Shown here: piece by piece, positions 1-8,988 of the stretch
How the letters are laid out: every line of letters begins with the position of its first letter
How positions within the stretch are numbered: position 1 is the first letter of the stretch
IMG/VR virus record: IMGVR_UViG_2531839195_000006
Source: a virus
Taxonomy: Duplodnaviria > Heunggongvirae > Uroviricota > Caudoviricetes
DNA length: 17,878 nucleotides
Reading direction: 5' to 3' (one strand)
Program-made: the position numbers and the translations under genes
Notes under the pieces: model-generated
Seen by the model: only the letters and a program-made list of their open reading frames with translations
Database searches by the model: none
Told to the model about the DNA's origin: nothing

Positions 1-68
1 TTTATTCCATAACTGCAGAGCATTTTTCTGATTGTTCCATCTGATTTCGGGGGGTATTCCGGGCAAGG

Positions 69-2993
69 TTGTTCAGTAAGGCATTCCTTCGTAAAATCAG
101 CATGTTTTTTGCACGACGGAAACCGGCAGCCATGAAAATCTGTCTTTATCATACTCTGAATCCTGACACGATCCCGGGTTATAAAAAATTTGCACAGGCT
201 ATTGCCACCGATAACTTTGTTCAGGCTGATGTTCGTAAAATTGACACCAATCTTTACCGCGCCCGGCTCAGTATCCGGGACCGATTACTGTTTTCGCTGT
301 ATCGCTACCACGGTGAAACTATCTGCCTTGTTCTGGAATATATTCGCAATCATGCCTATAACACTTCACGTTTTCTTCGCAGAAACGTGGTGATTGATGA
401 AGGGCGCTTACAACAACAACCAGTGCCGGATCCTGTTGATATCGCGACTGAAGCGCTGACGTATATCAATCCGTCTCATGGGCGTTTCCACCGCCTGGAT
501 AAAATGCTGTCCTTTGATGATGATCAGCAGGCACTGTACGAACACCCGCTACCGCTGGTGATTGTTGGCTCGGCGGGAAGTGGTAAGACGGCGCTGGTAC
601 TGGAAAAAATGAAGCAGGCTGCTGGTGATATACTGTATCTCAGCCTTTCCTCATTTCTGGTGGAAAAAGCGCGTACTCTCTATGACGCTTCAGGGGAAGG
701 GAGTGAGGTACAGAATATTGACTTTCTTTCGCTGACGGAATTTCTGGAAACTCTGCGCATTCCGGAAGGCAGGGAGGTGACTTTCAGTGCGTTCAGCGAC
801 TGGCTGCCCCGCAACAGGGCTATCGCCGCACTGGGGGCTGCCCATACCCTGTATGAGGAGTTCAGGGGCGTGATCGGTGCGGTTGCCTCCGGGAATGGGC
901 CGCTGTCCCGGGAGGCGTATCTGTCACTGGGGATACGGCAGTCGCTCTATGGCATGGAGGACCGCCCGACGGTCTATGTCCTGTTTGAACGTTATATCGC
1001 ATGGCTGAAACAGTCGCATCAGTATGACAGTAATCTGCTCAGTCATCAGTATCTTTCGTTGGCAACTCCCCGTTATGATGTCATTTTTGTTGATGAAGTT
1101 CAGGATATGACGCCTGTTCAACTGCAACTGGTACTGAAAACGCTACGTCATCCCGGTCAGTTTTTACTCTGTGGTGATGCCAATCAGATAGTTCATCCGA
1201 GCTTTTTCTCATGGAGTTCGCTCAAAAGTCTCTTTTTCCGGCAGCAACAGGGAAACGACACAACCGTTAATATCCTGCAGGCGAATTACCGTAACGGGCA
1301 CCACGTCACTGCACTGGCTAACCGGTTGCTGAGACTCAAACAGGTCCGCTTTAGTGCTATTGATCGGGAAAGTCACCATTTTGTCAGAAGCTGCGGTCAG
1401 GCAGAAGGGACCATCCGGTTGCTGGACGATAGGGAAGAGACAAAGCAGGAACTGAATGCCAAAACCTCACTTTCGAATCGTGTAGCGGTCATTGTGATGC
1501 ATCCGGAACAGAAAGCACAGGCGCGATGCTGGTTCAGTACGCCGCTGGTCTTTTCGGTTCAGGAGGTTAAGGGGCTGGAATACGAAACGGTGATCCTTTA
1601 CAATATAGTAAGCGCTGCCCGGCAGGCATTTGATGATATTTGCGAGGGTCTTACACCGGCTGATCTTGAGGGCGAGGCCCGTTATTCCCGTCCGCGGGAC
1701 AGGCAGGATCGTTCAGCGGAAATCTATAAATTTTTTACCAACGCGCTGTATGTTGCGCTCACCCGTGCTAAACACAATGTGTATCTTGTTGAACAGCAGG
1801 TGGAGCATCCTCTGTGGAGTCTGCTTGCGCTCACGCATCAGGAAGAGCCTCTGAATCTGCAGGAAGAGATTTCCAGCCGTGATGAGTGGCAGAAAACCGC
1901 ACATCTGCTTGAAAAACAGGGGAAGCAGGAGCAGGCGGACACCATCCGTAGCCGGATCCTGCAGACATCTGAGATGCCATGGCAGATTATCACCGCAGAG
2001 GATGCACGACAGTGGAAACAGCATATCCTCGCAGGTACAGCCGATAAAACCATACAACTGCAGGCGCTGGAGTACAGTCTGATTTATTCCCTGTTCCCGC
2101 TGTATAATGCACTGTACCGGGAAGATTTTAAGCCCACAAGGCAGCCCAGAACGAAGACTCTGCAGTTACTGGAGCTGAAGTATTTCCGGCCATACTCAAT
2201 GAATAACCCGGTTGCCGTGTTGCGGGATATTGAACGTTATGGTGTTGATCACCGTTCGCCGTTTAATCTTACTCCGCTGATGTCAGCAGCCCGGGCAGGT
2301 AATATTGCACTGGTTCAGTTACTGCTGGAGCGTGGTGCAGATCCCTTGCTGACCGGTAATGACGGGCTGGCGGCTTATCATCAAGTTCTGTCAGCGGCGG
2401 TCAGTACGCCCCGTTATGCGCAACAGAAAAGTGCGCAGTTGTATACCCTGCTGAAACCTGAAAGTCTGTCACTGCAGGTGGAAGGACGCCTCATCAAACT
2501 GGACAACCGGCAGATGGCAATGTTTCTGGTGATCCTGATGCAGGCGCTGTTCCACACGCATCTGGGAAGTGCTCTGTTTTTTTCGGAAGCCTTCAGTGCG
2601 GCACGACTGGCAGAGTGTGTGGTTCATCTTCCTGAAGCGTTGCTGCCGGAACGCCGCAAACGAAGGAGTTATATCAGCAGCCAGCTCTCTCAACATGAAG
2701 TTAACAGCAAAAATCCTTATGGAAAAAAGCTTTTTCTGAGGCTGAACCACGGACAGTATATTCTTAACCCGGGGCTTAAAATAAGGAAGGGTGATGTGTG
2801 GCGCGCGGTTTATGAGTTGCAGTCACCGGAAGATCTGGGGCATGATTTGCAGACTTATCTGCAGGATATGTCACCGGAATTAGTGGATATGCTGGGAGGG
2901 AAGAAGGGTTTTTACGAACGCAGTGAAAAGTCTGTCGGATACTGGGTGGGGGGATCCGTCGTGCCGCTCAAAAAGCGTGAGGTTCCGTGCTGA
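69..2993 (+). CDS. SF1 UvrD-like helicase / P-loop NTPase with C-terminal ankyrin repeats (974 aa as the maximal ORF)
   Basis: Walker A GSAGSGKT at aa 167-174 (nt 567-590), matching UvrD motif I. Motif [11 protein letters not shown] near aa 340. UvrD C-terminal motif [10 protein letters not shown] near aa 565. Ankyrin-type repeats ([41 protein letters not shown]) near aa 735-775. Start is uncertain: the ORF opens after a TGA at 42-44, and the candidates are TTG 69, ATG 102 and ATG 132, none with a strong RBS. Confidence 0.75.
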
Positions 2994-3008
2994 CAGGATG
3001 TAACCGAA

Positions 3009-3337
3009 CTTCATCTGTACGTAAGTACGTGATGTCTCCCGCCCACTTCTGGTTCGGACCACTGGCGTAAAAATCCTGCTCCAGCAGATTTTCTGACACG
3101 GGCAGGCCATGTGCGCGGTAACTGACCGGGCTGAACTTCCGGGAGGCCTTTGCCCTCAGCCCCTGACGGCGCAGGCTTGCCGCCACGGTTTTTACGTTAA
3201 AGTGGTAACCCTGAGCACGCAGTTCATCCGTCAGGCGTGGTGCACCGCAACGCTGTTTTGACCGGGTAAAGAACGCTGTCGCAGTGCTGACGGAACTGCT
3301 GACGAGGGCTTATCCCTGTCCGCCGCTGACACCACGT
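3009..3337 (-). pseudogene. Internal fragment of an IS3-like (IS3 family) transposase orfB N-terminal region, with no IS ends
   Basis: Minus-strand translation gives [19 protein letters not shown] ... [75 protein letters not shown], which matches the IS3 InsF N-terminal region as I remember it. The frame is broken by an internal indel and stop codons, and no terminal inverted repeats are present. Boundaries are approximate. Confidence 0.55.
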
Positions 3338-3526
3338 TCAACAGTTTGTGGACTGTTCGCTCGCTTCCGGAAATCAGGGCTTTCATGGCCTTTGCCTGCA
3401 GGTATGTCGGAGCAGGAGCTTGATGCCCTTCTTTACGGAAGTGCCTCCACAGTACCTGTCGTACTTACTGAAAGCACCGTTATGCCCAAACTCCCGGTGG
3501 TAAAAAACGTCCCCGGCGGCCTTAAT

Positions 3527-3560
3527 GCCAGTCAGTTAAGCAACTGACTGGCTCTTTTTC
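3527..3560 (+). terminator. Candidate rho-independent terminator
   Basis: Perfect 11-bp stem GCCAGTCAGTT / AACTGACTGGC (3527-3537 and 3542-3552) around a 4-nt loop AAGC, followed by TCTTTTTC on the plus strand. Confidence 0.4.
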
Positions 3561-3614
3561 GGGGCTGTGGGGTATTTCCAGGGCCTCTCCTTTACCACTC
3601 TCGGGAAGGCCCTT

Positions 3615-3641
3615 TGAACCGCCCCGGGTTTCCTGGAGAGT
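3615..3641. repeat. IS629-like terminal inverted repeat (orfB-distal end)
   Basis: TGAACCGCCCCGGGTTTCCTGGAGAGT; its partner at 7160-7186 reads TGAACCGCCCCGGGAATCCTGGAGACT on the opposite strand. Confidence 0.8.
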
Positions 3642-3656
3642 GTTTTATCTGTGAAC

Positions 3657-4178
<522 letters not shown>

Positions 4179-4180
4179 CC

Positions 4181-4214
4181 GAACCGGACGTGCACCTTTC
4201 AGCGCATCCGGCTC
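4181..4214 (-). ncRNA. Group II intron domain V (catalytic hairpin)
   Basis: Minus strand GAGCCGGATGCGCTGAAAGGTGCACGTCCGGTTC: 34 nt with the AGC triad, a GAAA loop and the GGTTC closing motif. Confidence 0.85.
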
Positions 4215-4219
4215 TCCAT

Positions 4220-5743
4220 TTAAATGCTGGCGAACGCCATTGCCACTTCTGTAAAGCGCGATGTATACGTGTTTCTGGTCTCCGTCCTCAGATAGGGATT
4301 ACCTTCGGGTAGCCGCCAGCGGAACAGCTTCTTGCCTTGCCCCACCAACCGGTACAGTATTTCGCCGCTGAGCTTGCCGTGATTGGTTTTACCAAATAAA
4401 ACCCACGTTTTGCTCTGACCCGGTTTCGGTGATTTACACCACCACCTCATCAGGGAAGCGATACCTGTACGGTATTTGCGGGCCAGCCAGTGAGCCAGCT
4501 TCCAGAACACGACACGGTCGATATAACTGAAGACTTTGGCCTTAAAATCAACGAACTGATAGAACATGGCCCAGCCTTTCAGTTTTCGGTTGAGTTGTTC
4601 AGCCATATCGACTTTGCTTTCACTGTAGTTGCCTGATAACAGTGCTGTCAGCGATGCGGCGAAGTTTCTGGCTTTCTCCTGCGGGATCGTTGAGACCACT
4701 CGCATCTCGCCATAACGACTGCGTTTGCGAATGATCCTGTGCCCCAGAAAGATAAAGCCGTCATTAACATGGGTGATTTTAGTCTTATCCATGTTCAGCC
4801 TGAGTTTCAGACTGCCTTCGAGCACACCCCGACACTCCTCCCTGATGGCTTCCGCCTGTGCTTTGGTGCCTTTGACGATGAGGACAAAATCATCGGCATA
4901 GCGGCAGTACGCCACCGCGGGTTTCCACTGCCAGTTTTCTCTGACCGCCGTACTTCGGCCCCGTTGGATACTGTTATTCCAGTACCACCGATCTTTTCTG
5001 GCTTTCCCGCTCAGGTAGCGCTCATGCAGGTATTGATCGAACTCATTCAGCATGATGTTCGATAATAGCGGCGATATAACACCGCCCTGTGGCACACCTT
5101 CACTGGCCGCCCGAAAGAGACCGACATCGATATGTCCCGCCTTGATGGTTTTCCACAGCAGAGTCATGAAACGTGCGTCACTGATCCTGCGGCGTACAGC
5201 CTTCATCAGCAGTCGATGATGTACGGTGTCGAAGTAACTGGACAGGTCGCCTTCAATCACCCAGCGTCCCCGGGTTTCACCACAGTCTGTGAGCTGTAAT
5301 TTCACCGTGCGGATCGCGTGGTGGACACTGCGCTCAGGCCGGAAGCCATATGAGAGCGTATGAAAATCACTCTCCCATATCGGCTCCATCGCCATCAGCA
5401 TGGCCCGCTGAACAATACGATCCCGCAACGCGGGGATACCCAGTGGTCGCAGTTTGCCGTTGCTTTTAGGGATGTAAACCCGTCTGGCGGGCAAGGGCTG
5501 GTAGTGGCCTGAGAGTAATTCATCCCTGAGGATTTGCAGCTCAACAGCCAGTCTGGCCTGTAGCATTGTTTTGCTCACGCCATCAGCGCCGGGGGTATGG
5601 GCCCCCTTTGATGAAAGCGTGATCCGCGCCGCTTCAGCCAGCCATTCTGGTTGTGTTATCAGACGCAGCAGCCGTTGAATCCGTAGGGACGGATCGGTGG
5701 CTGCCCATGTGGCAAGCTTGCGTTGCATTTCGCTGATTATCAA
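4220..5743 (-). CDS. Group II intron-encoded reverse transcriptase/maturase (507 aa, no HNH endonuclease domain seen)
   Basis: RT motifs RRVYIPKSNGKLRPLGIPALRDRIVQRAM, SYGFRPERSVHHA and YCRYADDFVLIV, followed by a maturase (X) domain. The C-terminus has no cysteine/histidine HNH signature. Confidence 0.9.
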   Translation of the reverse strand: MIISEMQRKLATWAATDPSLRIQRLLRLITQPEWLAEAARITLSSKGAHTPGADGVSKTMLQARLAVELQILRDELLSGHYQPLPARRVYIPKSNGKLRPLGIPALRDRIVQRAMLMAMEPIWESDFHTLSYGFRPERSVHHAIRTVKLQLTDCGETRGRWVIEGDLSSYFDTVHHRLLMKAVRRRISDARFMTLLWKTIKAGHIDVGLFRAASEGVPQGGVISPLLSNIMLNEFDQYLHERYLSGKARKDRWYWNNSIQRGRSTAVRENWQWKPAVAYCRYADDFVLIVKGTKAQAEAIREECRGVLEGSLKLRLNMDKTKITHVNDGFIFLGHRIIRKRSRYGEMRVVSTIPQEKARNFAASLTALLSGNYSESKVDMAEQLNRKLKGWAMFYQFVDFKAKVFSYIDRVVFWKLAHWLARKYRTGIASLMRWWCKSPKPGQSKTWVLFGKTNHGKLSGEILYRLVGQGKKLFRWRLPEGNPYLRTETRNTYTSRFTEVAMAFASI

Positions 5744-6385
5744 AGGTCTTCACCTCGTTAGGTCAGTTAATTCACGTCGCAAACACATTCAAACTGCTTC
5801 CCTTCGCCATGTAATGGGCTTTCCCCATCGCGGACTACTACGGAAGCTCCGCCAGCCAGCGCGTCATCGGAGCCATGCCCCCTTAACATCCGTCGCTGAC
5901 CTTCCCCGGTTTACCTGCCTGGACTCAGGCATACTGAGGAGGCTGCCCGTCGCACTCTTTATCCTTGCTTGCCGCAAGTTGGCAGAAGTCAGCAACGCAA
6001 GTGTGATAGACGCTGCTGCCCCGGTGTTTCGCATACATGTCAAAACACCTTCGACCGGCAGTGCTTACGTATCACTGCCAGTTCCTCCTGCACGGCCTGT
6101 CAGATCACGTAGGCCGTGGTGACGTTTTCAACCCACAGAGGCGGATTAACGGGTTCATGTTCTTCAGCCTTTCAGTACTTAACCTTGAGGATCATCTCGG
6201 CTTAGTGATCTCGCCTCAATCCCCGTTGTCAGCGGGTTACATCACCCTGCGGGCATGCCGCAGGTCACTGCCGCTCAGGTTCTCCACCGTCACACCCGGT
6301 GGGATTGTTGGGTTTCTCATCGTGAGTTACCGGTTCAATATTCCAGACAGACTCGCGGTTCATTTAAGCATCCATGCCCGCCCCG

Positions 6386-6809
6386 CATGTGCTGACGTAA
6401 GTAAAGTCAGCCACCCACAGCTGGTCAGGTCGTTCTGCCACGAACTGACGGTTTACGCGGTCGCCTGCGGCAACGGCTTTCCGGCTGATGGTCGTACGGA
6501 CCTTTTTACCCCGGAGAACACCGGCAAGTCCCATAACCGCCATGAGACGTGCCACAGTGCATCTGGCCACTCTGATACATTCCCGTAACAACTGACGCCA
6601 GACTTTACACCGTATACCTTGTGATTTTCATCGTATACGCGCTGTATCTCTTTCTTCAGCCAGTCATCGCGCTGCGCACGGGCACTGCGTTTATCCGGAT
6701 GATGTCGCTGTTGCTGACAGTGGTAATACGTTGACGGGGCAATATGCAGTTCGCTGCATAGCGGTCCGCCCCCGTACTGCTCACGCAGCTTATCCAGCAG
6801 TGGCATCAT
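6386..6809 (-). pseudogene. IS629 orfB, 5' portion (exon 1), frameshifted
   Basis: [68 protein letters not shown] continues in another frame as ...LRECIRVARCTVARLMAVMGLAGVLRGKKVRTTISRKAVAAGDRVNRQFVAERPDQLWVADFTYVST. The frame change is near 6598-6612. Confidence 0.75.
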
Positions 6810-6814
6810 TTTTT
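6806..6814 (-). promoter_or_regulatory. Programmed -1 ribosomal frameshift window of IS629 (A6 run overlapping orfA stop and orfB ATG)
   Basis: Minus strand reads TGG AAA AAA TGA TGC; the orfA stop TGA (6808-6806) overlaps the orfB ATG (6809-6807). This is the usual IS3-family OrfAB fusion arrangement. Confidence 0.6.
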
Positions 6815-7132
6815 CCAGAGGCGGTCGAACTCCGCCTTCGCAAAATAAGCGGAAGCCTGGCGAAGGATATCGTTACTGCGGCGCAGTTCACGATTTTCAC
6901 GCTCCAGCTCTTTCAGACGCTGACGTTCAGCGGTGGTGAGCCCTCCATCACCGCCCCCGGTATCCCGCTCATGCTGGCGACCCCAGACACGCAGAGTCTC
7001 CGGCGTACAGCCAATCTTTGGGGCAATGGAACAAATTGTCGCCCATTGTGAGTCATATTCGCCCTGACTTTCCAGAACCATACGGACTGCCCGTTGACGG
7101 ACTTCGGGGGAAAAACGAGTATTTTTAGTCAT
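6806..7132 (-). CDS. IS629 OrfA (IS3-family transposase N-terminal DNA-binding protein, 108 aa)
   Basis: [50 protein letters not shown]...[39 protein letters not shown] at 7132 is preceded by GAGAAAGAGG. Ends ...TGG AAA AAA TGA. Confidence 0.85.
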
Positions 7133-7159
7133 CCTGTTTACCTCTTTCTCAGGAAGTTT

Positions 7160-7186
7160 AGTCTCCAGGATTCCCGGGGCGGTTCA
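7160..7186. repeat. IS629-like terminal inverted repeat (orfA-proximal end)
   Basis: Reverse complement is TGAACCGCCCCGGGAATCCTGGAGACT, about 50 bp upstream of the orfA ATG at 7132. Confidence 0.8.
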
Positions 7187-7257
7187 CGTTGGGTTTTTCT
7201 GCTCATTATTAGCTCCTTCTGATGCCATTCTATTTCAGGAAGGAGTGTCCGTTAAAC

Positions 7258-8988
7258 TCAGGCTACCTCAACTCTCTTTTCAATAGGGTCAAGGTTTTTC
7301 ATCCCGCCAAGATCTTCTGCCACCTGTTTGAGCATTGACCTTGTTGATGGCGCATCAATTTTTGCACCTGCAGGCATCGCCTTTTCAACATTGCGATAAA
7401 GCTGGTCGCTTCGTTTCATCAGCGCAGACATTCTTCCATTGACCGTATCAATAAACTTGTCGCTCATACCAAGAGCATCTTTTGCACCGGAAACGCGATC
7501 AATTATCTCACCCGCGCCCTGTGCTAGCTGCCTGATTGCTTCATTTTCCTGCACCTGTAGAGCAGAACCCGCACGGGACTTGATTGCTTGCTCAACTGCC
7601 TTGTATTGCTCGTTCCCGGAAAAGTGTGAAGGGAGTAATGAATCAACATTAAGCCTTTCAGCAGACTCCAGAACTTCAGCCTGAGGATTGATATCTAGTT
7701 CATCAAGCGATGAAGCGAGATTTGGCCTTTTTTGTGCTGCTACTGTGCGAACGACTTCCTCTGGGTTCTTCGTCGCAGGCGTCATTGGTACACCTTGTGC
7801 TACTCTTGCCTCTGCGGCATGAACCGCAGGATTTGTTGCTGCAGCGGCATCACCGGAGAATGGTGATGTTTCTGTTGGCGCAGTGGTCGCTCTCTGTGCA
7901 GATGTTTTATTGCCACTAATTATATTTGATGCACCACGAACACCACGGGTAACGCCATTTATCAGGCCATGCGTAGCAATGCTAAGTCCGGCATTAATAG
8001 CGGCATTTTCGGCAAAATCACCCCGTTGATTCGCCGCGTCAGCGAGAGAACCAATGACCATGTTTCCAGCTACACCTGCTCCAGGAACAAGATAACCGCC
8101 TATTGACTCTCCAGCTTGCGCGTAGGGGTCTGTCGGTCTGTCTACTGGACGATAAACATCATCCAATACTTTTGGCCCCCCAAGCCCCTGACTGATTGCA
8201 TTAATCAGACTTGCGCCACCCTGCAATACGTCAAATGGTATGTTTACCAGACCACGACCAGCCTGTTCTGCAATTTGCCCTGCACTTTGACCACCAGTGA
8301 GCCAATCGCCAGCTTGTTGCATCAATGATGGTTCTTCCCGTGTTGGTGCATTATTGGCCTGATTAACTGTTTGTTGCTGAACAGGTTTCGGTGCGACAGA
8401 ACTTACGGGTTGAGGTGGCTGCTGACTGGCTGCCTGCTGCTCAATCTGAGCAAATGGATTATTTGGGTCTGACTGCACACCTGATGCCGATACTTGTTCG
8501 GATGACTGTACTTCCAGTTGTGCAAACGGGTTGTTAGGGTCTTGCTGAGGATGTACCTTTGCAGAGGTGGCGCGCTGTTCGACTGTTGAGTCTGTCACCG
8601 GGTCACCAGCCCATTGAGCAAAGCGATCATCAACGTAACCGCGGCCTTCAGGTCCTGGCGTATATTCACCACGCTTTGCCTTCATAACGTTGCCGGGACC
8701 GTCGTGATAAGCCTGAAGAGAGTCACGCCAGTTACCAAACTGCTGGTACATCTTTGCCAGATAGCGCGCGCCAGCGTCAGCCTGATATTCGGGGTTTTGC
8801 ATTTGCTCATCGGTATAACCCATATCACGCCATGTCCCAGGCATGACCTGAGTCAATCCTACAGCCCCGGCGGAGCTTACTGCGGCAGGGTTGTAAGAAG
8901 ACTCCTTGGCACCCAGTGCAGTCATCAACCCTTCTGGCACACCGTAACGTGCGCCAGCCTGCTCTAACAAATCACGGTAATTAGCCAT
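7258..8988 (-). CDS. Prophage ejection/internal virion protein at the gp16 position, with N-terminal lytic transglycosylase (SLT) domain (576 aa)
   Basis: N-terminus [28 protein letters not shown]...AGARYL is an SLT signature. It is followed by a Q/P/A-rich linker with a tandem DPNNPFAQ(L/I)E repeat. The ATG directly follows the upstream stop. Confidence 0.75.

What the first reader, a model, noticed from the sequence alone, without database searches (positions are those of the whole stretch)
132..560. Uncharacterised ~130-aa N-terminal domain ahead of the helicase core
Residues upstream of the Walker A motif ([29 protein letters not shown]...[15 protein letters not shown]) carry no motif I can recognise. 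In defence helicases an N-terminal module is often the sensor or effector, so this is where any new function would lie. The true start codon is also unresolved (TTG 69, ATG 102 or ATG 132).
Basis: seen in the sequence. Interest (0 to 1): 0.5.

Follow-up and report, generated by a model that had tools for sequence, protein, structure and literature searches.

The report
RelE-like toxin domain on a helicase
The unannotated front end of this Shigella-plasmid helicase is predicted to fold like the RelE/ParE family of bacterial toxins that cut messenger RNA on the ribosome, so the protein probably couples a DNA/RNA motor to a built-in toxin-type module, an arrangement found in hundreds of bacterial species but not yet studied.

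Summary
Nt 132-560 encode 143 residues ahead of the Walker A motif, and they match nothing in Pfam, NCBIfam, PADLOC or PHROGs.

The region is not one 130-residue domain. Residues 1-82 (nt 132-377) form a compact domain. Residues 83-125 are a less conserved linker leading into the helicase Q motif.

The start codon is ATG 132, not TTG 69 or ATG 102.

The ~950-aa family (RelE-like domain, UvrD/Rep-type helicase, ankyrin repeats, C-terminal domain) occurs in at least 590 species genomes. It is always a solitary gene with no conserved neighbour or antitoxin.

Most likely the domain is a cis-controlled, RelE-type RNA- or ribosome-directed effector or targeting module. Nuclease activity and a defence role are inferred, not shown.

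I rate it a new variant of a known kind, of moderate interest.

The parts
69..131 (+). Leader, not coding. NCBI's PGAP annotation pipeline places a TTG-69 N-terminal extension (and the ATG 102 candidate) here.
   Evidence: Window against E. coli CM2: 1 synonymous and 10 non-synonymous codon changes in these 21 codons, against 20 and 7 in the next 84 codons. ATG 102 is CTG or GCG in other E. coli alleles. The Nitrococcus and Salmonella homologues have an in-frame stop 7 and 11 codons upstream of their ATG and no alternative start.
132..134 (+). True start codon (ATG).
   Evidence: At least 85 of about 105 full-length homologues begin M[KR][IV]xLY at this position. In 77 of 80 genome loci the match begins at M. 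PGAP itself uses this ATG in strain CM2, giving 949 aa.
132..377 (+). RelE/ParE-fold domain, residues 1-82: strand 2-6, helix 17-25, strands 34-38, 41-45, 51-59 and 62-71, then the H74-x-Y76 turn and the SRFL motif.
378..506 (+). Linker, residues 83-125, partly ordered, with conserved IDE (D89, E90) and YxNP...RFxLLDK motifs.
   Evidence: Lower pLDDT of 57-76 in the full-length model. Mean identity to the query is 37%. Conserved positions are listed.
507..536 (+). Helicase Q-motif region, [10 protein letters not shown] (residues 126-135).
   Evidence: D129 and Q132 are invariant; S127 and F128 are nearly invariant.
567..590 (+). Walker A motif, GSAGSGKT (residues 146-153).
   Evidence: Read from the sequence. 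G146, A148, G149, S150, G151, K152 and T153 are invariant.
507..1856 (+). UvrD/Rep-type SF1A helicase core (residues 126-575) with intact motifs: DEVQD at 321-325, GDxNQ at 348-352, TR at 544-545.
2202..2456 (+). Ankyrin-repeat region (residues 691-775).
   Evidence: Pfam Ank_5, Ank and Ank_3 score above their cut-offs. A profile search against PDB sequences returns ankyrins.
2457..2831 (+). Conserved C-terminal domain (residues 776-900) of unknown family.
   Evidence: Invariant R842, Y847, E856, F868, R870, G874, Y876, P880 and W890. pLDDT is 86-96. No Pfam hit.
132..2993 (+). Whole coding sequence: 953 aa in this window, 949 aa in the pINV reference allele.
   Evidence: The last 9 codons are shifted by a G6/G7 homopolymer difference near nt 2950.

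Best explanation
Residues 1-82 (nt 132-377), translated from ATG 132, form a RelE/ParE-superfamily (BECR-fold) toxin-like domain. A linker of about 40 residues joins it to a UvrD/Rep-type SF1A helicase, which is followed by ankyrin repeats and a conserved C-terminal domain.

The domain keeps a RelE/YoeB-like set of polar residues on its sheet and C-terminal turn: K36, R43, R/K45, R51, E69, H74 and Y76. It is therefore most likely a functional RNA-directed module. The likeliest role is an endoribonuclease that attacks mRNA, probably on the ribosome as RelE does. At minimum it would be a ribosome- or RNA-docking module.

The gene is solitary and has no antitoxin partner. The module must therefore be controlled in cis, presumably by the nucleotide- and nucleic-acid-bound state of the helicase and by the ankyrin and C-terminal domains. 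The motor would act as sensor or regulator and the RelE-like domain as the output.

Shown: the domain boundaries, the start codon, the fold assignment on predicted models, the residue conservation, the fixed N-terminal position on this helicase family, and the lack of partner genes. Inferred: nuclease activity, ribosome dependence, cis-autoinhibition, and any role in defence or abortive infection.

For: Sequence register. The domain shares the hexapeptide LYRARL with archaeal RelE. BLASTP gives E=0.007 for the single comparison. hhalign of the family profile against archaeal RelE gives E=0.002 over 46 columns, aligning ADVRKI with FDVIKL, NLYRARL with DLYRARL and RLLFSL with RVIYSV. This places R51 on the invariant (D/G)YR arginine of RelE toxins (E. 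coli RelE R61 in alignment A8).

Constraint. K36, R51, E69, H74 and Y76 are invariant in 150 full-length members, and also in members only 35-43% identical. The domain is as conserved as the helicase core, 59% against 55%.

Architecture. A profile search of 1.84 billion representatives found 638 hits. In the best 150 the domain is always N-terminal, and the short hits run on into the same linker and Walker A. Of 67 genome ORFs not cut by a contig end, 60 are 936-1065 aa.

Solitary gene. The largest cluster of neighbouring genes occurs in 5 of 51 loci, and the contexts vary.

Precedent. A RelE/colicin D-like 'RTL' domain sits just N-terminal of an SF1 helicase in CoCoNuT CnuH, and was likewise detected only by structure (PMC11090510).
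Against: No sequence profile detects the relationship. Pfam and NCBIfam give nothing. hmmsearch of the family profile against PDB sequences gives nothing. hhalign against E. coli YoeB, E. coli RelE and a YoeB family alignment gives nothing. A four-sequence RelE alignment gives only E=0.17, though in the same register.

The helicase core resembles DNA helicases (Rep, PcrA, UvrD) more than RNA helicases, which sits awkwardly with an mRNA- or ribosome-directed output.

About 50% identity between distant taxa, and housekeeping-like contexts such as in Halomonas, are not typical of fast-evolving defence genes. No experimental data on this protein turned up in the literature searches.
Confidence: 0.6

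Rival explanations
1. The domain has the RelE fold but is catalytically inert. It serves as a docking module that brings the helicase to a ribosome, an RNA or a protein partner, or acts as an intramolecular regulatory domain, with no nuclease chemistry.
For: There is no detectable profile similarity to active toxins. The analogous RTL domain of CnuH is also of uncertain activity. No antitoxin is present, which is easier to reconcile with a non-toxic module. The high conservation across distant taxa suits a fixed binding interface.
Against: Invariant K36, R43, R51, E69, H74 and Y76, including an acid/His/Tyr set like that of YoeB, are more than a hydrophobic docking surface would need. R51 falls on the catalytic arginine register of RelE.
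Confidence: 0.28
2. The domain is ParE-like and not RelE-like. It would bind or poison DNA gyrase (or another DNA-associated target), matching the DNA-helicase character of the core.
Against: RelE, YoeB, HigB and YafQ rank above every ParE in both searches. The domain retains the (x)R arginine, a C-terminal Tyr and a His/Glu pair. From published comparisons of ParE and RelE, recalled and not tested here, ParE toxins characteristically lack these RNase residues.
Confidence: 0.07
3. The fold assignment is an artefact. A small alpha/beta sheet predicted by AF2 could match small toxins by chance, and the region could be a family-specific helicase accessory domain unrelated to RelE/ParE.
Confidence: 0.05

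Closest known systems
Type II toxin-antitoxin toxins of the RelE/ParE superfamily (RelE, YoeB, HigB, YafQ; archaeal RelE PHS013, PDB 1wmi)
   Same: The predicted fold is the same: an N-terminal strand, a helical segment and a four-stranded antiparallel sheet of about 80-90 residues. The LYRARL...R-hydrophobic strand motif is shared with archaeal RelE. Conserved basic residues plus a C-terminal His/Tyr lie where RelE and YoeB carry catalytic residues.
   Different: The domain is not a free-standing ~90-aa protein but the N-terminus of a ~950-aa helicase. There is no adjacent antitoxin gene. It matches none of the Pfam toxin models. The helical hairpin is reduced to one short helix. Activity is untested.
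RTL (RNase toxin-like) domain of the CnuH helicase in Type II/III-A CoCoNuT systems (Bell et al., eLife 2024, PMC11090510)
   Same: A RelE/colicin D-fold domain lies immediately N-terminal of an SF1 helicase. It was recognised only by structure comparison of AF2 models, and its nuclease activity is uncertain.
Cami1 (CARF-RelE, type III CRISPR ancillary ribosome-dependent RNase; PDB 8phb/8phj)
   Different: The Cami1 sensor is a cyclic-oligoadenylate-binding CARF domain, and the RelE domain is C-terminal. Here the partner is an ATP-driven helicase, and no CRISPR association was seen.
Gabija GajB and other UvrD-like defence helicases
   Same: They share the UvrD-type SF1A core. PADLOC GajB models hit the motif II-IV region (E down to 3e-12, about 90 residues).
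   Different: There is no GajA partner or any other conserved neighbour. The GajB models do not cover the N-terminal domain. Full-length architecture differs.

Membership tests
RelE/ParE toxin superfamily (fold level) | Compact alpha/beta fold: an N-terminal strand, helices, then an antiparallel sheet of 3-4 strands, about 80-95 residues. | tested here: met
RelE/ParE toxin superfamily (sequence families PF05016, PF06769 and relatives) | A significant match to a curated sequence profile of the superfamily. | tested here: not met
   No Pfam or NCBIfam hit at E<=10. hmmsearch of the family profile against PDB sequences found nothing. hhalign against YoeB and E. coli RelE found nothing. Only archaeal RelE gives a weak, register-consistent alignment (E 0.002 for one comparison).
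RelE-type mRNA interferases | Catalytic constellation of basic residues on the sheet plus a C-terminal Arg/His/Tyr (E. coli RelE K52/K54/R61/R81/Y87; YoeB E46/R65/H83/Y84). | tested here: inconclusive
   K36, R43, R/K45, R51, E69, H74 and Y76 are invariant or nearly so. R51 aligns with archaeal RelE R65 and E. coli RelE R61. No 3D superposition was possible because no coordinates were available.
Type II toxin-antitoxin module | An adjacent, co-oriented antitoxin gene. | tested here: not met
   No neighbouring gene family is present in more than 5 of 51 loci. Four individually inspected contexts differ from one another.
RelE-type mRNA interferases | Ribosome-dependent cleavage of A-site mRNA. 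| not testable with these tools
   This needs in vitro translation and cleavage assays or a cryo-EM structure with 70S ribosomes.
UvrD/Rep (SF1A) helicases | Motifs Q, I, Ia, II (DExx), III, IV, V and VI, and a 1A/2A RecA-like core with 1B/2B insertions. | tested here: met
Gabija (GajA/GajB) | A GajB helicase encoded next to the OLD-family ATPase-nuclease GajA. | tested here: not met
   No conserved neighbour exists. The window and pINV have shf upstream on the other strand and IS remnants downstream. The GajB HMM hits are partial.
CoCoNuT CnuH | A UPF1-like helicase with SmpB-like and RTL domains, encoded in an operon with McrB/McrC-like CnuB and CnuC. | tested here: not met
   The core is closer to Rep, PcrA and UvrD than to Upf1. 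There are no McrBC-type neighbours.

The most novel reading that the evidence does not exclude
The family is a solitary, antitoxin-less system in which an ATP-driven UvrD/Rep-type motor directly gates a RelE-type ribosome-dependent RNase in cis. It would be a single-polypeptide sensor-plus-toxin that shuts down translation when the helicase meets a particular nucleic-acid structure, for example a phage or plasmid replication intermediate or a transcription-translation conflict. It is carried by the Shigella/EIEC virulence plasmid and by at least 590 bacterial species.
Probability: 0.3. Interest if true: 0.75.

Novelty: new variant of a known kind. Interest (0 to 1): 0.5.

Why it matters
RelE/ParE toxins are known almost entirely as small proteins neutralised by an antitoxin. 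The only cis-fused forms I can cite are CARF-RelE (Cami1), which has been characterised, and the predicted RTL domain of CoCoNuT helicases.

This family puts a RelE-fold module on a UvrD/Rep-type helicase with ankyrin repeats, as a solitary gene. It is conserved at about 50% identity across Gamma-, Alpha- and Zetaproteobacteria, Leptospiraceae and Chloroflexi. Its N-terminal 125 residues are 100% identical on the virulence plasmids of all four Shigella species.

If the module is active, the family would show a new way of regulating a translation toxin, by a motor protein instead of an antitoxin or a second messenger. It would also give a testable function to a gene annotated only as a 'UvrD-helicase' or 'ankyrin repeat' protein.

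Two practical results follow. The start codon annotated on the pINV and PapRG-04-4 records examined here (TTG 69, 970 aa) should be corrected to ATG 132 (949 aa). The domain also merits its own family model.

Tried and rejected
Profile libraries on residues 1-143 returned nothing usable: Pfam, NCBIfam, PADLOC and PHROGs.

Sequence-level links to solved toxins:
- hmmsearch of the family profile against all PDB sequences gave only a spurious repeat protein at E 0.9.
- hhalign against E. coli YoeB, E. coli RelE and a 20-sequence YoeB alignment gave no signal. The YoeB homologue search returned only relatives >=82% identical, so that profile was shallow.
- A four-sequence RelE alignment gave E 0.17 in the correct register.

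The AFDB50 fold library was unavailable.

Other architectures or free-standing copies of the domain were not found. In the best 150 of 638 profile hits and in 80 genome loci, the short hits are fragments or frameshifted pieces of the same helicase.

A conserved partner or antitoxin gene was not found. The ~185-aa gene upstream in Nitrococcus is unrelated to the ~187-aa 'inovirus Gp2-type' gene upstream in E. coli.

Phage-encoded copies were not found.

Six literature searches for this protein or architecture turned up only the CoCoNuT RTL precedent.

TTG 69 and ATG 102 were rejected as starts.

The promoter scan of nt 1-3300 found no sigma-70-like site. Rfam found nothing in the leader.

Interdomain contacts could not be examined because model coordinates and PAE are not exposed.

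Full report
**Observation.** The window carries one long ORF on the + strand, from TTG 69 or ATG 132 to 2993. From ATG 132 the product begins [29 protein letters not shown]... The Walker A motif GSAGSGKT is residues 146-153, so nt 132-560 do encode the 143 residues ahead of the P-loop. Scanned alone, those residues match nothing in Pfam or NCBIfam (E<=10) or in PADLOC or PHROGs (E<=1). The rest of the protein matches UvrD-helicase, UvrD_C_2, AAA_19, Viral_helicase1 and ankyrin models.

**Where the gene comes from.** Nt 1-3200 are 99.8-99.9% identical to the large virulence plasmid of enteroinvasive E. coli. There the gene is WP_010921718.1, 'UvrD-helicase domain-containing protein', and it lies next to the shf-capU-virK-lpxM operon and is followed by IS remnants. 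The N-terminal 125 residues are 100% identical on plasmids of S. flexneri, S. sonnei, S. boydii, S. dysenteriae and E. coli. Alleles 88-90% identical lie in E. coli chromosomal islands beside YfjI/YfjJ-type and 'inovirus Gp2-type' genes. Only 99 of 5,426 complete E. coli genomes hold the gene.

**Start codon.** ATG 132 is the start, on four lines of evidence.
- At least 85 of about 105 full-length homologues begin M[KR][IV]xLY at the aligned position, and so do 77 of 80 genome loci.
- In the Nitrococcus and Salmonella homologues an in-frame stop lies 7 and 11 codons upstream of that ATG, with no alternative start between.
- Between the window and E. coli CM2, the 21 codons from TTG 69 to 131 show 1 synonymous and 10 non-synonymous changes. 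The next 84 codons show 20 and 7.
- ATG 102 is CTG or GCG in other E. coli alleles.

NCBI's PGAP annotation pipeline is inconsistent here. It gives 970 aa from TTG on pINV and 949 aa from ATG in CM2.

**The family.** The full-length protein has thousands of relatives of about 940-970 aa, at around 50% identity. They occur in Gammaproteobacteria (Endozoicomonas, Halomonas, Chromatiales, Salmonella, Serratia, Enterobacter), Alpha- and Zetaproteobacteria, Leptospiraceae, Lentisphaeria and Chloroflexi MAGs. The N-terminal 82 residues are as conserved as the helicase core (59% against 55% mean identity to the query). Residues 83-125 are much less conserved, at 37%.

**Fold of the N-terminal region.** An AF2 model of residues 1-134, built with 45 homologues, has pLDDT 93-97 over residues 1-80. 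Its elements are strand 2-6, helix 17-25, and strands 34-38, 41-45, 51-59 and 62-71. The full-length model (pLDDT 84.6, pTM 0.84) reproduces these elements.

**Sequence-level evidence.** This is weak but consistent. Profile searches against PDB sequences and hhalign against YoeB or E. coli RelE find nothing. True RelE family members barely detect each other either: archaeal RelE against T. thermophilus RelE gives E 0.04.

Across 150 full-length members K36, L46, R51, E69, H74, Y76 and F81 are invariant. R43 is present in 145/150, position 45 is R or K in 150/150, and position 33 is D or E in 142/150. The same residues hold in members only 35-43% identical, including a Piscirickettsia plasmid copy. 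The E69/H74/Y76 set after the last strand recalls the Glu/His/Tyr of YoeB. That comparison comes from my knowledge of the YoeB literature and from strand position, not from a superposition.

**Distribution of the domain.** A profile of residues 1-88 searched against 1.84 billion representative proteins gives 638 hits at E<=1e-3 and 274 at E<=1e-10. In the best 150 the match always starts at or near residue 1. Thirty-six of them are proteins of 909-1272 aa. The short ones continue into the same linker, Q motif and Walker A, or are frameshifted, so they are fragments. In 80 genome loci, 60 of the 67 ORFs not cut by a contig end are 936-1065 aa. I found no free-standing copy and no other architecture, but hits beyond the best 150 could not be inspected.

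**Genomic context.** No neighbouring gene family is shared by more than 5 of 51 loci. Individually inspected contexts range from islands rich in mobile elements and toxin-antitoxin genes (Nitrococcus, Salmonella, E. coli) to ordinary-looking neighbourhoods (Halomonas, Roseospira). None of 50,697 phage records encodes the domain. The gene is thus a solitary unit with no antitoxin.

**Mechanism.** The best-supported reading is that the domain is a functional RelE-type module. The most likely role is an endoribonuclease acting on mRNA, possibly in the ribosomal A site. At minimum it is an RNA- or ribosome-docking module fused as the output of a helicase. Because no antitoxin exists, its activity must be restrained in cis, plausibly by the conformational state of the motor and by the ankyrin and C-terminal domains. 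Cami1 shows that a RelE domain can be controlled by a fused sensor.

My confidence by step:
- The fold assignment: about 0.85.
- That the domain is catalytically active: about 0.45.
- That the protein is an anti-phage or abortive-infection system: about 0.3.

The rivals are an inert docking domain (0.28), a ParE-like gyrase-directed domain (0.07) and a chance fold match (0.05).

**Comparison with known systems.** The nearest precedent is the 'RTL' RelE/colicin D-like domain just N-terminal of the UPF1-like helicase CnuH in Type II/III-A CoCoNuT systems. It too was found only by structure and is of uncertain activity (PMC11090510). This family differs in helicase class, in its accessory domains (ankyrin repeats instead of an SmpB-like OB fold) and in being a solitary gene instead of part of a McrBC-type operon. 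It is not a type II toxin-antitoxin module (no antitoxin), not Gabija (no GajA) and not Cami1 (no CARF). Six full-text searches found no description of this architecture. I therefore class it as a new variant of a known kind.

**Limits.** Everything structural rests on predicted models. I had no access to coordinates, so active-site geometry and interdomain contacts are untested. The AFDB50 library was unavailable. No experiment bears on activity or biological role.

Noticed in passing
window 2945-2952: A run of six G here is seven G in the pINV reference copy. This shifts the last 9 codons: the window allele ends ...[14 protein letters not shown] (953 aa) and the reference ends ...[10 protein letters not shown] (949 aa). 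It could be a sequencing error or a real homopolymer variant, and it affects only the poorly conserved tail.
   Followed up: partly
window 3000-17878: The window is a mosaic. The pINV-type helicase is followed by IS fragments and a group II intron: reverse transcriptase at 4220-5743 (-), Intron_gpII RNA at 4130-4216 (-), and an IS3-type ALIL frameshift pseudoknot at 6735-6851 (-). Next comes a P22/Sf6-like late operon at 7258-17878 (-): SLT ejection protein, injectosome translocase, gp7, tail needle, gp10, coat, scaffold and portal. No complete E. coli genome or PLSDB plasmid holds the whole arrangement.
   Followed up: partly
window 2457-2831 (residues 776-900): The same protein has a second conserved, confidently modelled region with no family assignment. 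It is a beta-rich domain after the ankyrin repeats, with invariant R842, Y847, E856, F868, R870, G874, Y876, P880 and W890 and an RRKRRxYISSxLSxNE motif.
   Followed up: no
window 69-131: The 63-nt leader upstream of ATG 132 differs at only 1 position from the PapRG-04-4 chromosomal allele, whereas the next 252 coding nt show 20 changed codons. A conserved 5' leader element is possible. No Rfam hit and no sigma-70-like promoter was found.
   Followed up: partly
L001 16069-18981; L002 8053-10965; L004 3559-6408: RefSeq/PGAP annotates the same gene with two different starts: TTG giving 970 aa in some records and ATG giving 949 aa in others. It also uses four different product names: UvrD-helicase domain-containing, ankyrin repeat domain-containing, DEAD/DEAH box helicase, and hypothetical.
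   Followed up: yes
window 378-506 (residues 83-125): In the model of residues 1-134 alone, residues 111-120 ([10 protein letters not shown], conserved as YxNP...RF) are placed with pLDDT about 87 although the helicase is absent. This suggests the linker segment packs onto the RelE-like domain, and it could be part of an intramolecular restraint.
   Followed up: no
L002 7454-8017; L003 5454-6017: In E. coli chromosomal islands the helicase gene sits directly downstream of a ~187-aa 'inovirus-type Gp2' (YagK/YfjJ-like) gene and an AlpA-like HTH gene, inside a YfjI/YfjJ-type integrative element. This upstream gene is absent from the pINV copy and is unrelated to the upstream gene in Nitrococcus.
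   Followed up: partly
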